Shown here piece after piece: positions 671-7,298 of a stretch of DNA of 8,128 bases (position 1 is its first letter; each line of letters opens with the position of its first letter). This stretch comes from a virus (Duplodnaviria; Heunggongvirae; Uroviricota; Caudoviricetes). Both the position numbers and the translations under genes were made by a program. The DNA lies in IMG/VR virus record IMGVR_UViG_2671180608_000010. One strand, given 5' to 3'. Under the pieces are notes generated by a model. It was not told where the DNA came from. It saw only the letters and a list, made by a program, of their open reading frames with translations, and ran no database searches.

Positions 671-702
671 TCAATATAAACAGCCCCTCCGGAGAGGGGC
701 TG
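671..702 (-). terminator. GC-rich hairpin (cagcccctc/cgga/gaggggctg) followed on the minus strand by a U-rich tract; likely intrinsic terminator
   Basis: Perfect 9-bp stem at 681-689/694-702 with 4-nt loop. Minus-strand downstream sequence is UUUAUAUUGAUUUUG. On the plus strand it sits 35 nt after the 311..646 stop but has no U-tract. Confidence 0.4.
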
Positions 703-897
703 GAGAGTGGCGCTATGTGCCATTGCATGGTGCCGGGTGCCTCCCGGTGAATTCAGTACCAGCACCTGAATCCGCGATTATCCCATATACCTACTCGCTG
801 ATTGCCCCTCCGCACAGGGGGATTCACCATGCCAGTTTCTTTTAACAAACTCCCCGCAAAACAGACAACTGTCAACCGTCTGAATTGTGAGACATTT

Positions 898-1027: not shown

Positions 1028-1104
1028 TGGACCGCCATCGGGGACTTGAACCCCGCGCAGCCAGCTTCGAAGGCTGGCGCTCTTTCCTGATGAGCTAATG
1101 GCGG
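1028..1104 (-). tRNA. tRNA-Arg, anticodon UCG (reads CGA), 77 nt with encoded CCA
   Basis: Hand-folded: acceptor CCGCCAT/ATGGCGG (unusual C1-G72), D-stem GCTC/GAGC, anticodon stem CCAGC/GCTGG with loop CTTCGAA, T-arm CGGGG-TTCAAGT-CCCCG, CCA. Confidence 0.8.
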
Positions 1105-1227
1105 TATGTGATGGTGGCCCTTGCTGGATTTGAACCAGCGACCTGGCGATTATGAGTCGCTCGCTCTCACCACTGAGCTAAAGGGCCGGGAGCCGCATAA
1201 TAACGACGCGTAATTAATTCTTCAATA
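1096..1227 (-). repeat. Direct repeat copy 1 (Arg-UCG 5' end, spacer, tRNA-Ile2, about 35 nt of upstream flank); second copy at 2833..2958
   Basis: Read directly: 1096-1193 matches 2833-2930 except one spacer SNP (tatgtga versus tttgtga). Flanks then diverge gradually. Confidence 0.85.
1112..1187 (-). tRNA. ileZ: tRNA with CAU anticodon, closest by memory to E. coli tRNA-Ile2 (ileX/ileZ type, reads AUA) rather than elongator Met
   Basis: Hand-folded: acceptor GGCCCTT/AAGGGCC, D-arm TAGCTCAGTGGTGAGAGC, anticodon loop CTCATAA, T-arm GCTGG-TTCAAAT-CCAGC, CCA. Ile2 versus Met cannot be settled without a classifier. The ileZ symbol is by analogy to the Stx-phage ileZ-argN-argO cluster. Confidence 0.8.
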
Positions 1228-2103
1228 TCATCCGTTCTGGCTGACTAAATCCTGTACTTCCCGAACCGTCTGCTCAAAACGTTCAGTCTCCAGCTCAACG
1301 CCAATTGCACGACGCCCGAGCGCCAGTGCCGCTTTCACTGTCGAACCCAACCCCATGAAAAAATCTGCAATCAGGTCACCCGGACGACTGCTAGCGCTGA
1401 TTATCTGCTGCAGCATTTCTGCCGGTTTTTCGCACGGATGTTTCCCGGGATAGAACTGCACCGGTTTATGCGTCCACACATCGGTATACGGCACCTGCAC
1501 CGTCACGCCAAAATACCGCCGCAGATGTTTATATTCACTCAGCAGCTCCGCATACTGCCGGTTCAGTGAGGTATACGTATCCACCAGCTGGTGGTGGAGC
1601 TTTTCCAGTTCACCACGCCGATGCTTCTCTTCTGCCACCCGGGCAAACAGCGCCTGTAATTTCAGATAATCGCTTTCATTCGGCAACTGCCACTGACCGG
1701 CACTGAACCAGTGCGACACCATGTTTTTCTTTCCTGTGGCATCTGCAATCTGTTTTGCCGTTATCCCCAGGGCAGCTCGCGCATCACGAAAGTAAGAAAT
1801 CAGCGGGGCCATCACATGCTGTTTCAGTGCACTGCCCTTCGCCGCATACCCGGCATCTTTCGGACGATACGGCCCCTGATAATGTTCCGCGAACAGAATG
1901 CGCTCTGTGGCGGGGAAATACGCCCGCAGGCTTTCCTTGTTGCATCCGTTCCAGCGTCCGGACGGCTTCGCCCAGATAATATGGTTCAGCACACTGAAGC
2001 GTTCACGCATCATGATTTCGATATCAGATGCCAGGCGATGACCACAGAACAGGTAAAGACTTCCGGCAGGTTTCAGCACCCGCCAGAACTGCGCCAGACA
2101 CTG
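1228..2103 (-). CDS. DNA methyltransferase, N6-adenine/N4-cytosine beta class (C-terminal AdoMet motif DFFMGLGST); visible 292-codon 3' portion, 5' end is N-masked
   Basis: Minus ORF ends with TGA at 1228. The motif-I-like FxGxGST near the C-terminus with an upstream target-recognition region matches beta-class architecture, so motif IV (DPPY/F) is expected inside the masked 2104-2613 run. The 1228..2655 track ORF is an artefact of reading through Ns. Confidence 0.8.
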   Translation of the reverse strand, partial: QCLAQFWRVLKPAGSLYLFCGHRLASDIEIMMRERFSVLNHIIWAKPSGRWNGCNKESLRAYFPATERILFAEHYQGPYRPKDAGYAAKGSALKQHVMAPLISYFRDARAALGITAKQIADATGKKNMVSHWFSAGQWQLPNESDYLKLQALFARVAEEKHRRGELEKLHHQLVDTYTSLNRQYAELLSEYKHLRRYFGVTVQVPYTDVWTHKPVQFYPGKHPCEKPAEMLQQIISASSRPGDLIADFFMGLGSTVKAALALGRRAIGVELETERFEQTVREVQDLVSQNG

Positions 2104-2832
2104 NNNNNNNNNNNNNNNNNNNNNNNNNNNNNNNNNNNNNNNNNNNNNNNNNNNNNNNNNNNNNNNNNNNNNNNNNNNNNNNNNNNNNNNNNNNNNNNNN
2201 NNNNNNNNNNNNNNNNNNNNNNNNNNNNNNNNNNNNNNNNNNNNNNNNNNNNNNNNNNNNNNNNNNNNNNNNNNNNNNNNNNNNNNNNNNNNNNNNNNNN
2301 NNNNNNNNNNNNNNNNNNNNNNNNNNNNNNNNNNNNNNNNNNNNNNNNNNNNNNNNNNNNNNNNNNNNNNNNNNNNNNNNNNNNNNNNNNNNNNNNNNNN
2401 NNNNNNNNNNNNNNNNNNNNNNNNNNNNNNNNNNNNNNNNNNNNNNNNNNNNNNNNNNNNNNNNNNNNNNNNNNNNNNNNNNNNNNNNNNNNNNNNNNNN
2501 NNNNNNNNNNNNNNNNNNNNNNNNNNNNNNNNNNNNNNNNNNNNNNNNNNNNNNNNNNNNNNNNNNNNNNNNNNNNNNNNNNNNNNNNNNNNNNNNNNNN
2601 NNNNNNNNNNNNNTTTAGCATGTCTTTTCCTTTTCCGGTTAACGTGACACACCAATAACTCTTGTCGAAAAAGCCAGCAAGCTGAAANNNNNNNNNNNNN
2701 NNNNNNNNNNNNNNNNNNNNNNNNNNNNNNNNNNNNNNNNNNNNNNNNNNNNNNNNNNNNNNNNNNNNNNNNNNNNNNNNNNNNNNNNNNNNNNNNNNNN
2801 NNNNNNNNNNNNNNNNNNNNNNNNNNNNNNNN

Positions 2833-3889: not shown

Positions 3890-3918
3890 TTTTTGACCTG
3901 CTCTTCATGCATTATGGG
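3838..3918 (-). repeat. Duplicated rusA-3'/Q-5' junction, copy A (partner at 4864..4947)
   Basis: About 80 nt near-identical between the two positions (ttttggggagtagtatttcggtaaatcttccagtttcattttttgacctgc...). Copy A runs into the N-run at 3919. Confidence 0.8.
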
Positions 3919-4412
3919 NNNNNNNNNNNNNNNNNNNNNNNNNNNNNNNNNNNNNNNNNNNNNNNNNNNNNNNNNNNNNNNNNNNNNNNNNNNNNNNNNN
4001 NNNNNNNNNCCACGCGATCACACNNNNNNNNNNNNNNNNNNNNNNNNNNNNNNNNNNNNNNNNNNNNNNNNNNNNNNNNNNNNNNNNNNNNNNNNNNNNN
4101 NNNNNNNNNNNNNNNNNNNNNNNNNNNNNNNNNNNNNNNNNNNNNNNNNNNNNNNNNNNNNNNNNNNNNNNNNNNNNNNNNNNNNNNNNNNNNNNNNNNN
4201 NNNNNNNNNNNNNNNNNNNNNNNNNNNNNNNNNNNNNNNNNNNNNNNNNNNNNNCTTCCGGACAGGCTTAATTTCAGTCGCTGCTGACGGACAATAAGCG
4301 CCACATCCCGGCGATAACGCTCACCGGCTTTTGATACAAAATATGTGTTGTCACGACGTCGCCAGTAAGTATTCACCGTCGGCGGATAAGGTAAAATAAA
4401 CTCATGGCGCAT
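3886..4412 (-). CDS. Second RusA-like resolvase gene, integrity uncertain (interior masked; N- and C-terminal frames disagree if N-run lengths are true)
   Basis: Visible N-terminus MRHEFILPYPPTVNTYWRRRDNTYFVSKAGERYRRDVALIVRQQRLKLSLSG (4412-4255) is about 90% identical to rusA at 4915..5295. Visible 3' end ...PIMHEEQVKK-TGA at 3886 is in a different frame, and the span is 146 nt longer than rusA copy 1. Confidence 0.45.
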
Positions 4413-4863: not shown

Positions 4864-4918
4864 CAGTCAGGCCGGGGGATTTTGGGGAGTAGTATTTCGG
4901 TAAATCTTCCAGTTTCAT
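4864..4918 (-). pseudogene. 5' fragment of a Q gene (first 18 codons MKLEDLPKYYSPKSPGLT), then masked and divergent; recombination scar
   Basis: DNA near-identical to the start of Q at 3889-3838. After the N-run the reading frame gives unrelated sequence and stops at 4706. Confidence 0.6.
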
Positions 4919-4947
4919 TTTTTGACCTGCCCTTCAAGCATTATGGG
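4864..4947 (-). repeat. Duplicated rusA-3'/Q-5' junction, copy B
   Basis: Near-identical to 3838-3918, read directly. Confidence 0.8.
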
Positions 4948-5295
4948 ATAAATCTTCACCCCCAGACGTCCACCAGATACTGGCTGAGCACGAACGATAT
5001 TGATTTCATCAAACTGCTCATCGTCCATTAGCAACCCCGCATGCGTCAGCGCATCCAGCGGCGCTTTCAGAATATTGTCCAGGTCACGGCGGCGCTTATC
5101 CGGTGGTTCTGCAATAATTTTTATTGCCAACCTTCCGGACAGGCTTAATTTCAGCCGCTGCTGGCGAACAATAAGCGCCACTGCCCGGCGATAACGCTCC
5201 CCGGCTTTTGATACAAAATATGTGCTGCCACGACGACGCCAGTAAGTGTTCACCGTCGGCGGGTAAGGTAAAACAAATTCTATGCGCTCGGTCAT
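4915..5295 (-). CDS. rusA: Crossover junction endodeoxyribonuclease RusA (Holliday junction resolvase), 126 aa
   Basis: Aligns by memory with E. coli RusA: LPYPPTVNTYWRRR..., PDKRRRDLDNILKA..DALT.AG...DDEQ, GGRL. Start abuts the DUF968 stop (TAAATG). Confidence 0.9.
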   Translation of the reverse strand: MTERIEFVLPYPPTVNTYWRRRGSTYFVSKAGERYRRAVALIVRQQRLKLSLSGRLAIKIIAEPPDKRRRDLDNILKAPLDALTHAGLLMDDEQFDEINIVRAQPVSGGRLGVKIYPIMLEGQVKK

Positions 5296-6793: not shown

Positions 6794-6824
6794 ATTCTAT
6801 TCCGGCACCATCTAAAACTTCAAA
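6794..6824 (-). promoter_or_regulatory. Candidate sigma70 promoter (TTGAAG, 18-nt spacer, TAGAAT) for the 6430..6711 gene
   Basis: Hexamers read on the minus strand directly after the hok terminator. Confidence 0.3.
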
Positions 6825-6830
6825 CGCGTT

Positions 6831-6861
6831 GAAAATAAAAACAAAAACCCGCCGAAGCGGG
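6831..6861 (-). terminator. Intrinsic terminator of the hok transcript
   Basis: Minus-strand hairpin CCCGC-UUCG-GCGGG (6848-6861) followed by UUUUUGUUUUUAUUUUC. Confidence 0.65.
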
Positions 6862-6931
6862 TTAAGTGTGGGTGCATTGAGGATGCCTGACCCATCAGAG
6901 GTGGCGAGGGATTTCTCCCCCGCCTGGTCTC

Positions 6932-7087
6932 TTACTCCTCAGGTTCGTAAGCTGTGAAGACAGCGACCTCCGTCTGGCCGGTTCGAATTCGTACCTCGCA
7001 GAGGTCTTTCCTCGTTACCAGTGCCGTCACAATGACGGTTAAACAGATGACGATCAGGGCGATTAACATCGCCTTTTGCTGCTTCAT
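6932..7087 (-). CDS. hokD: Hok/Gef-family membrane toxin, 51 aa (HokD/RelF-like)
   Basis: MKQQKAMLIALIVICLTVIVTALVTRKDLCEVRIRTGQTEVAVFTAYEPEE matches the Hok family from memory. AAGGAG 9 nt upstream. The 70-aa track ORF is an in-frame upstream ATG extension. Confidence 0.85.
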   Translation of the reverse strand: MKQQKAMLIALIVICLTVIVTALVTRKDLCEVRIRTGQTEVAVFTAYEPEE

Positions 7088-7298
7088 AGCCTGCTTCTCC
7101 TTGCCTTTCGGCACGTAAGAGGCTAACCTAGATTTGCCGTTCATAGATTGAGCCTCAGATTAATGTTAAGCGTCTTGCCGGACGCGTAATGTTAACTGGG
7201 GCTTTTCTCTATCTGCCTTTTGGTGTTCATGCCTGAGACAGATAGCCTCAAGCACCCGCTGCAATTCTACTTAACTCTCCTTTTCCCGCAAACCGTTT

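What the first reader, a model, noticed from the sequence alone, without database searches (positions are those of the whole stretch)
6831..7160. Hok toxin locus with an in-frame upstream start and a candidate antisense promoter
Seen: hok (51 aa) has an in-frame ATG 19 codons upstream (7144) with its own GAGG, giving a 70-aa ORF. On the plus strand inside the hok 5' region lies TTGCCT (7101-7106), 17-nt spacer, TAACCT (7124-7129), oriented to transcribe antisense across that upstream start. Established: plasmid hok is controlled through an overlapping mok frame and a Sok antisense RNA, whereas K-12 hokD is described as co-transcribed with relBE. Inference: this copy may have its own antisense control.
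Basis: partly seen in the sequence, partly recalled or inferred. Interest (0 to 1): 0.45.

Follow-up and report, generated by a model that had tools for sequence, protein, structure and literature searches.

The report
Ordinary complete prophage hok/mok/sok module

Summary
TTGCCT-17-TAACCT sits at 7101-7129 on the plus strand.

As a consensus match the hexamer pair is at chance level. Its position, however, is exactly that of the Sok promoter in known loci. The 29-nt block is identical to the sokW promoter of Stx2 prophage Sp5, where changing TAACCTA to GAGCCGG abolished antitoxin activity and a northern probe detected the RNA (PMC8621323).

The same geometry (mok 19 in-frame codons upstream; Sok starting 8 nt inside mok) is annotated for mokW/hokW/sokW and for K-12 mokC/hokC/sokC. 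The Rfam hok-leader model scores 112 bits here and nothing at K-12 hokD, whose homology stops at 7101. So this is the intact hok/mok/sok cassette (about 6836-7292) of which K-12 relBE-hokD is a truncated derivative. Similar DNA occurs in 4933 of 5426 complete E. coli genomes.

It is already known.

One side observation: the Sok 5' tail and its target loop (7130-7154) are about 10-fold more variable than the rest of the cassette and fall into discrete alleles.

The parts
7264..7292 (-). Predicted hok promoter: -10 TAGAAT at 7269-7264 and a -35-like TTTGCG/TTGCGG at 7292-7286. The +1 G at 7257 lies 7 nt after the -10.
   Evidence: Read from the sequence. The block is identical in Sp5 hokW and aligns with hokC (TATAAT) and hokB. 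Rfam model position 1 falls at 7257. Not tested experimentally.
6836..7257 (-). Full-length hok mRNA, about 420 nt.
   Evidence: The Rfam leader hit covers 7257-7082. A terminator lies at 6863-6846 with a T run after it. The fold has z = -7.45, with the 5' and 3' ends paired.
7246..7257 (-). tac element: the 5' end GGGUGCUUGAGG. It pairs with fbi in the full-length RNA and with AAGCCCC (7204-7198) after 3' trimming.
   Evidence: Minimum-free-energy folds of the full-length and 3'-truncated RNA. Zero variation across 88 unique loci.
7119..7156 (-). Sok-target hairpin (sokT-like): GAGGCUCAAUCUAUGAACGGCAAAUCUAGGUUAGCCUC. It carries the mok SD and AUG, and the loop is complementary to the Sok 5' tail.
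   Evidence: Rfam structure, the truncated-RNA fold, and a hairpin kept in nearly all sequence variants.
6932..7144 (-). mok leader frame: 70 codons, in frame with hok, with its SD GAGG at 7156-7153.
   Evidence: It is 89% identical to MokW and 70% to MokC, both annotated with the same 19-codon in-frame extension.
6932..7087 (-). hok toxin gene, 51 aa, with its SD AGGAG at 7101-7097.
   Evidence: 100% identical to K-12 HokD. Pfam PF01848 at 81.6 bits.
6870..6882 (-). fbi (fold-back inhibition) element CCUCAAUGCACCC, complementary to the 5' tac.
   Evidence: Full-length fold: 12 bp with one bulge to 7257-7246. Conserved in Sp5 hokW and in K-12 hokD.
6836..6863 (-). Intrinsic terminator of the hok mRNA: AACCCGCTTCGGCGGGTT followed by a T run.
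   Evidence: Terminator scan.
7101..7129 (+). Sok promoter: -35 TTGCCT (sharing T7101 with the hok SD), a 17-nt spacer, and -10 TAACCT.
   Evidence: Identical to Sp5 sokW, where a -10 mutation abolished antitoxin function. Positional homologues are TTGCCG-17-TAAGAT (sokB), TTGACC-17-CACTCT (sokC) and TTGCCT-17-TATCCT (R1-type). Mean pairwise difference is 0.030 in an independently anchored sample.
7136..7206 (+). Predicted Sok antisense RNA, 71 nt: a 14-nt single-stranded 5' tail (GCCGUUCAUAGAUU), then a long hairpin and UUUU.
   Evidence: Coordinates transferred from the annotated sokW by alignment. Fold energy is -29.9 kcal/mol, z = -4.9, with the same architecture as SokW, SokC and SokB. 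No transcript has been observed for this sequence.
7130..7154 (.). Hypervariable island covering the 6 nt before Sok +1, the Sok 5' tail, mok codons 2-5 and the target loop.
   Evidence: Entropy peaks here. Mean pairwise difference is 0.30-0.31 per site against 0.03-0.07 elsewhere, in two samples. The variants form discrete alleles.

Best explanation
Window 6836-7292 is a complete hok/mok/sok type I toxin-antitoxin cassette of the prophage hokW/'hokD' lineage. It sits between rem/DUF968 and the nin-like genes of a lambdoid prophage.

The mechanism below is the R1/hokW model transferred by homology.
1. A weak promoter makes a stable hok mRNA of about 420 nt.
2. The 5' end of this mRNA (tac, 7257-7246) is locked to its 3' end (fbi, 6882-6870), which keeps it untranslatable and unable to bind Sok.
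3. Slow 3' trimming removes fbi. The RNA refolds and forms the hairpin 7156-7119, which carries the mok SD and AUG.
4. Ribosomes translating mok (70 codons, in frame here) are needed to open the hok start.
5. From TTGCCT-17-TAACCT on the other strand, a short-lived 71-nt Sok RNA (7136-7206) is made. Its 14-nt free 5' tail pairs with the hairpin loop across the mok start, blocks mok and therefore hok translation, and marks the duplex for RNase III.
6. When Sok synthesis stops (prophage loss, induction, or transcription shut-off), Sok decays. Hok is then made and depolarises the inner membrane.

Shown here: all sequence elements, their positions, their homology and the predicted folds. Inferred: transcription, turnover, translational coupling and killing.
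For: - Toxin: 100% identical to HokD and matches Pfam HOK_GEF.
- Leader: Rfam RF01794 scores 112.4 bits over the full model, comparable with hokC (118), hokW (113.5), hokB (110) and an R1-type plasmid locus (107).
- mok: the same 19-codon in-frame extension as the annotated mokW and mokC.
- Sok: the promoter block is identical to sokW's, and the annotated sokW and sokC starts map to window 7136. The R1 Sok 5' end GACUAGACAU has the same relation to the mok AUG (primer in PMC1635323).
- Experiment in the closest relative: changing the sokW -10 from TAACCTA to GAGCCGG caused HokW toxicity, which sokW supplied in trans partly rescued. sokW RNA was detected by northern blot with a probe to +1..+30.
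- Folds: 5'-3' pairing in the full-length RNA, a tac switch after trimming, and Sok as a tail plus terminator hairpin.
- Cassette limits: homology to Sp5, where the module sits in a different prophage context near attR, spans only promoter to fbi.
Against: - There are no expression data for this sequence.
- The promoter hexamers are only 7/12 to consensus and occur at chance frequency on their own.
- The Sok tail and target loop here differ from the tested sokW allele at 6 of 14 positions, and the loop has no U for a YUNR U-turn motif (read). Binding kinetics are therefore untested.
- According to the introduction of preprint 10.1101/2025.08.07.668861, chromosomal hokA/B/C loci did not mediate post-segregational killing. 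Intact architecture does not guarantee activity.
Confidence: 0.88

Rival explanations
1. The cassette is structurally intact but functionally silent: a domesticated or decaying chromosomal hok/sok whose Hok is never released, as reported for several K-12 chromosomal loci.
For: [quoted passage not shown] Prophage regions often decay: the rem homologue carries an internal stop in the closest E. coli hit.
Against: Every element is intact and nearly invariant across about 90 unique loci, including hok first and second codon positions, tac and fbi, which argues for purifying selection. The near-identical hokW-sokW is active as a toxin-antitoxin pair and affects phage release. HokD peptide was toxic in the preprint's assay.
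Confidence: 0.08
2. The 70-aa in-frame ORF encodes the real product, an N-terminally extended Hok isoform with its own function. It would not be merely a leader whose translation opens the hok start.
For: The in-frame 70-codon arrangement is kept in 90 of 108 sampled prophage loci and in mokW and mokC. Residues 6-19 (RLASYVPKGKEKQA) are conserved between the window and MokW.
Against: In 14 of 108 loci the leader is a 19-codon ORF in another frame, ending in a TGA that overlaps the hok ATG. mokB and the R1-type mok are out of frame. Codons 2-5 are the most variable part of the cassette. Conservation of residues 6-19 is explained by the overlapping Sok promoter and hok SD.
Confidence: 0.03
3. 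This is a sok-less hok like K-12 hokD, expressed only by read-through from upstream genes. The hexamers would be a chance match.
For: The Hok protein is identical to K-12 HokD and PGAP names all such loci hokD. The hexamer match is at chance level as a pattern.
Against: K-12 homology ends at 7101, and the K-12 locus gives no RF01794 hit. The window has the full leader, the Sok body and the experimentally validated promoter block. No relBE lies upstream.
Confidence: 0.01

Closest known systems
hokW / mokW / sokW of Stx2 prophage Sp5 (VT2-Sakai, AP000422) and 933W
   Same: The cassette from promoter to fbi is the same. The hok promoter, the Sok promoter and the Sok hairpin are identical, and MokW is 89% identical. 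mok is 70 aa and in frame, hok is 51 aa, and Sok is 71 nt starting 8 nt inside mok. It has been shown experimentally to be a type I toxin-antitoxin pair.
   Different: Six of the 14 Sok-tail nucleotides differ, which changes mok codons 2-5 (NGKS here, LNTC there). The Hok C-terminus differs (TAYEPEE against VDYESEK). The terminator differs. The prophage position differs: the nin region next to rem here, near attR in Sp5.
K-12 hokD (relF) in the relB-relE-hokD operon of the Qin prophage
   Same: The Hok protein is identical and so are the downstream neighbours (rem, DUF968/ydfU, Q). The 3' UTR, fbi and terminator are the same.
   Different: K-12 lacks everything upstream of window 7101: the Sok -10, the Sok RNA, mok, tac and the hok promoter. 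relE and relB are there instead, and there is no RF01794 hit. The window therefore shows the intact state of this locus.
K-12 hokC (gef) / mokC / sokC
   Same: The leader architecture aligns end to end. mokC is in frame and 19 codons longer than hokC. sokC starts 8 nt inside mokC.
   Different: About 74% DNA identity. The Sok hairpin is shorter. The -35 is TTGACC and the -10 is CACTCT. In K-12 an IS186 lies next to the locus.
hok/mok/sok (parB) of plasmid R1, the paradigm
   Same: The same parts are present: tac/fbi, a mok-coupled hok, and Sok from TTGCCT-17-TA(T/A)CCT with its 5' tail over the mok start. The R1-type locus L008 shows this, as does the R1 Sok 5' end.
   Different: mok is out of frame with hok in the R1 type. 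HokW is about 44% identical to R1 Hok according to PMC8621323. R1 is plasmid-borne and is known to mediate post-segregational killing.

Membership tests
[quoted passage not shown] | Small hydrophobic Hok/Gef-family toxin ORF | tested here: met
   Pfam PF01848 at 81.6 bits against a cut-off of 22. 100% identical to HokD.
[quoted passage not shown] | Upstream overlapping leader ORF (mok) with its own SD, preceding the hok start | tested here: met
   ORF 6932-7144 with GAGG 8 nt upstream. It aligns with the annotated MokW and MokC.
[quoted passage not shown] | Structured hok mRNA leader matching the family covariance model | tested here: met
   RF01794 at 112.4 bits against a gathering score of 59, over model positions 1-157 of 157. 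As a negative control, the K-12 hokD locus gives no hit.
[quoted passage not shown] | Fold-back of the mRNA 3' end (fbi) onto the 5' end (tac), and an alternative fold after 3' trimming | tested here: met
   In silico only. The full-length fold shows 12 bp between 7257-7246 and 6882-6870. In the truncated fold, tac switches to AAGCCCC and the target hairpin forms.
[quoted passage not shown] | cis-antisense Sok gene: a promoter inside the hok 5' region, and an RNA with a free 5' tail over the mok start followed by a terminator hairpin | tested here: met
   The promoter block is identical to the mutationally validated sokW promoter. Predicted RNA 7136-7206 has a 14-nt tail and a hairpin of -29.9 kcal/mol. 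This is sequence-level evidence only.
[quoted passage not shown] | Sok RNA is actually made and represses Hok synthesis; Hok kills when Sok is lost | not testable with these tools
   Shown only for the relative hokW-sokW (PMC8621323).
K-12 hokD/relF type (sok-less, third gene of the relBE operon) | relE-relB immediately upstream, and absence of the mok/Sok/tac leader | tested here: not met
   Homology to K-12 stops at 7101. The upstream ORFs have no Pfam match, RelE/RelB included. The leader is present.

The most novel reading that the evidence does not exclude
The Sok 5' tail and its target loop (7130-7154) may be a specificity switch under diversifying or balancing selection.

Prophage hok/sok cassettes that are otherwise 93-100% alike carry at least 8 discrete tail alleles. 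Mean pairwise difference is 0.30 per site, against 0.03-0.07 at hok third codon positions and 0.03 in the adjoining Sok promoter. Predicted cognate tail-target duplexes are -19 to -22 kcal/mol; non-cognate ones are -1 to -13 kcal/mol.

This would define 'immunity groups'. Each co-resident prophage would stay addictive on its own and would escape neutralisation by a neighbour's Sok. The window carries the most divergent of the common alleles.

I found no description of this in the papers searched. The 2026 Hok survey states that Mok and Sok were not analysed. The older Gerdes papers are not in the library, so priority is uncertain.
Probability: 0.35. Interest if true: 0.45.

Novelty: already known. 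Interest (0 to 1): 0.1.

Why it matters
For annotation, the result is modestly useful. PGAP labels thousands of such loci 'hokD' and annotates neither mok nor sok. That label hides the fact that most E. coli copies are complete, self-regulated hok/mok/sok cassettes, while K-12 hokD is the truncated exception.

Biologically it adds nothing new to the hok/sok paradigm.

The only lead with some value is the sharply localised allelic diversity of the Sok tail. If it sets specificity, it would explain how genomes with up to 9 such places avoid cross-protection between their cassettes.

Tried and rejected
- **Consensus promoter scan.** The hexamers alone are not evidence, so I relied on positional homology and the published mutation.
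- **Strand of the Rfam 'sok' hit.** The hit is on the minus (hok-sense) strand. At first sight this contradicts a plus-strand Sok. The model ends at the hok AUG and hits the strand opposite to the annotated sokB, sokC and sokW. It therefore models the hok leader and says nothing about strand of transcription.
- **Location of hokW in VT2-Sakai.** BLAST against the first 50 kb found nothing. hokW lies near attR in the last 15 kb.
- **Genome-contig scan with the window's tail allele.** It returned only one 3.3-kb contig, labelled as a Collinsella MAG. This is uninformative and may be a misbinned phage fragment.
- **Co-residence test of tail alleles.** Only three same-genome pairs were available; two differ and one is the same. 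The test is underpowered.
- **Supplementary files of PMC8621323.** They are not held, but the primer table in the main text gave the -10 mutation.
- **Pedersen & Gerdes 1999 and Steif & Meyer 2012.** I could not retrieve either, so statements about ucb/dcb nomenclature rest on general knowledge of the R1 model.

Full report
**Observation.**

On the minus strand, ORF 6932-7144 encodes 70 aa. An internal ATG at 7087 gives a 51-aa peptide that is 100% identical to K-12 HokD and matches Pfam HOK_GEF at 81.6 bits. GAGG at 7156-7153 lies 8 nt before the ATG at 7144. On the plus strand, TTGCCT (7101-7106), a 17-nt spacer and TAACCT (7124-7129) are present.

As a pattern the hexamer pair is weak (4/6 and 3/6). 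The scan tool does not report it. Sites at least this good occur 16 times in the window against 13.5 +/- 3.6 in shuffles. Taken alone, the promoter call is therefore not above chance.

**What it is.**

Rfam model RF01794 ('sok') matches 7257-7082 on the minus strand over its full length at 112.4 bits. The model ends on the hok AUG. In K-12 and Sp5 it hits the strand opposite to the annotated sokB, sokC and sokW. It is therefore in effect a model of the hok mRNA leader. It hits hokC, hokB, hokW and an R1-type plasmid locus, but not the K-12 hokD locus.

Similar DNA occurs in 4933 of 5426 complete E. coli genomes, and 3824 of them cover at least 80% of the 521-nt query. K-12 strains cover only query positions 1-302, which is window 6800-7101. 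In K-12 the sequence beyond that point is relE-relB, and the alignment breaks just upstream of the hok SD.

The window's neighbours are DUF968/ydfU, RusA, Q and a rem-like ORF. These are the same as downstream of K-12 hokD in the Qin prophage. The window thus shows the intact form of the locus of which K-12 hokD is a truncated derivative.

**Match to annotated and tested relatives.**

In VT2-Sakai (Sp5) the annotated coordinates are mokW 59815-60027, hokW 59815-59970 and sokW 60019-60089. The two ORFs share a stop codon, so mokW is hokW extended by 19 in-frame codons. sokW starts 8 nt inside mokW. K-12 mokC/hokC/sokC has the same geometry.

The window aligns with Sp5 from the hok promoter to the fbi element, and its Sok promoter block is identical. 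Transferring the coordinates gives Sok = 7136-7206.

The same promoter position is occupied by TTGCCG-17-TAAGAT in sokB, TTGACC-17-CACTCT in sokC and TTGCCT-17-TATCCT in an R1-type plasmid. The R1 Sok 5' end, GACUAGACAU, has the same relation to the mok AUG.

Takada et al. 2021 (PMC8621323) showed that hokW-sokW is a type I toxin-antitoxin pair. A 'pro-less' sokW construct caused growth retardation, and sokW in trans partly rescued it. They also detected sokW RNA with a probe to +1..+30.

**Anatomy and mechanism.**

- Predicted hok promoter: TAGAAT at 7269-7264, with +1 at 7257.
- In the fold of the full-length RNA (7257 to 6838), the 5' GGGUGCUUGAGG pairs with CCUCAAUGCACCC at 6882-6870 (tac-fbi). 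The mok SD is paired with the C run at about 7198-7201.
- When the 3' 46 nt are removed, the 5' end pairs instead with AAGCCCC, and GAGGCU...AGCCUC forms the hairpin 7156-7119. The mok AUG sits at the top of the 5' arm, and the loop beside it is complementary to the Sok tail.
- Predicted Sok has a 14-nt free tail and a hairpin of -29.9 kcal/mol followed by UUUU. SokW, SokC and SokB have the same architecture.

These features reproduce the R1 model: an inactive full-length mRNA, activation by 3' trimming, mok-coupled hok translation, and Sok blocking mok. The sequence elements and the folds are shown here. Transcription, decay, coupling and killing are inferred from R1 and hokW.

In a prophage the likely roles are retention of the element or help with lysis on induction, as proposed for Sp5. 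Abortive infection is another possibility, as suggested for R1.

**The in-frame start.**

The in-frame arrangement is normal for the hokC/hokW group but is not conserved across the family. mokB and the R1-type mok are out of frame. Among 108 sampled prophage loci, 90 have the 70-aa in-frame ORF. Another 14 have a 19-codon leader ending in a TGA that overlaps the hok ATG. This favours the view that translation of the leader matters, rather than an extended Hok protein.

**Side observation.**

I sampled cassettes from IMG/VR in two ways: with the Sok promoter as anchor, and independently with the Sok terminator side as anchor. In both samples variability is concentrated at 7130-7154.

| Region | Mean pairwise difference per site |
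|---|---|
| Sok tail (+1..+14) | 0.30-0.31 |
| 6 nt before Sok +1 | 0.25 |
| Sok promoter | 0.03 |
| Sok body | 0.03-0.04 |
| hok third codon positions | 0.03-0.07 |

The variants form at least 8 discrete alleles. The Sok +1 G and the mok start codon are invariant, and nearly all variants keep a hairpin. Predicted cognate tail-target duplexes are -19 to -22 kcal/mol, and non-cognate ones are -1 to -13 kcal/mol. SokC of K-12 and SokW of Sp5 share their first 9 nt.

This pattern is what diversification of antisense specificity among co-resident cassettes would produce. Relaxed constraint on a loop combined with recombination is not excluded. The co-residence test was underpowered, with only three pairs.

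**Verdict.**

The feature is a standard, very common hok/mok/sok cassette that has been annotated in Stx phages for years and is already known. Interest is low. The localised Sok-tail polymorphism is the only lead worth a follow-up.

Noticed in passing
window 7130-7154 (and loci L009-L150): There is a hypervariable island in an otherwise near-identical prophage hok/sok cassette, covering the Sok 5' tail, mok codons 2-5 and the target loop. At least 8 discrete alleles are present. Mean pairwise difference is about 0.30 per site against 0.03-0.07 elsewhere, and nearly all variants keep the hairpin. Non-cognate tail-target duplexes are predicted to be much weaker than cognate ones.
   Followed up: partly
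loci such as L130 (14 of 108 sampled loci): This variant cassette has -35 TTGACC and -10 TAATCT. A 2-nt deletion after the mok ATG and a 1-nt insertion further downstream turn mok into a 19-codon leader that ends in a TGA overlapping the hok ATG (ATGA). The mok frame is therefore not conserved within this lineage.
   Followed up: partly
window 7082-7257; L004, L005, L007, L008: Rfam RF01794, named 'sok antitoxin', matches the hok-sense strand and ends at the hok AUG. That is opposite to the annotated sokB, sokC and sokW. A hit's strand should not be read as the strand of Sok.
   Followed up: yes
window 1096-1227 and 2833-2964: tRNA-Met (CAT) is present twice (1112-1187 and 2849-2924) inside a 132-nt direct repeat of 94% identity. 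The repeat flanks an N6/N4 DNA methylase ORF (1228-2655, minus strand). This looks like an insertion or duplication in the tRNA cluster (Met, Arg-TCG, Arg-TCT) downstream of Q.
   Followed up: no
window 3912-4412 vs 4915-5295: A 166-aa ORF shares its first 52 aa (90% identity) with the neighbouring RusA gene and then diverges. It has no Pfam hit. Direct repeats D1 and D3 mark a partial duplication, or mosaic, of the RusA-to-Q junction.
   Followed up: partly
window 672-861: A full-length match to the sRNA family STnc100 (RF02076, 133.6 bits) lies on the minus strand, downstream of the tRNA cluster.
   Followed up: no
window 6946-6949: The hok Tyr47 codon TAC followed by G forms a TACG motif. 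The Hok preprint's introduction says hokC/D/E mRNAs show an editing phenomenon similar to the TadA A-to-I Tyr-to-Cys recoding of hokB codon 29. That TACG is the TadA target motif is my own recollection, not a tool result. I did not examine this further.
   Followed up: no
L129 (JAIHTM010000277.1): The only species-representative genome contig with the window's exact Sok-tail allele is a 3.3-kb scaffold of a 'Collinsella sp.' MAG. It is probably a misbinned enterobacterial phage fragment.
   Followed up: no
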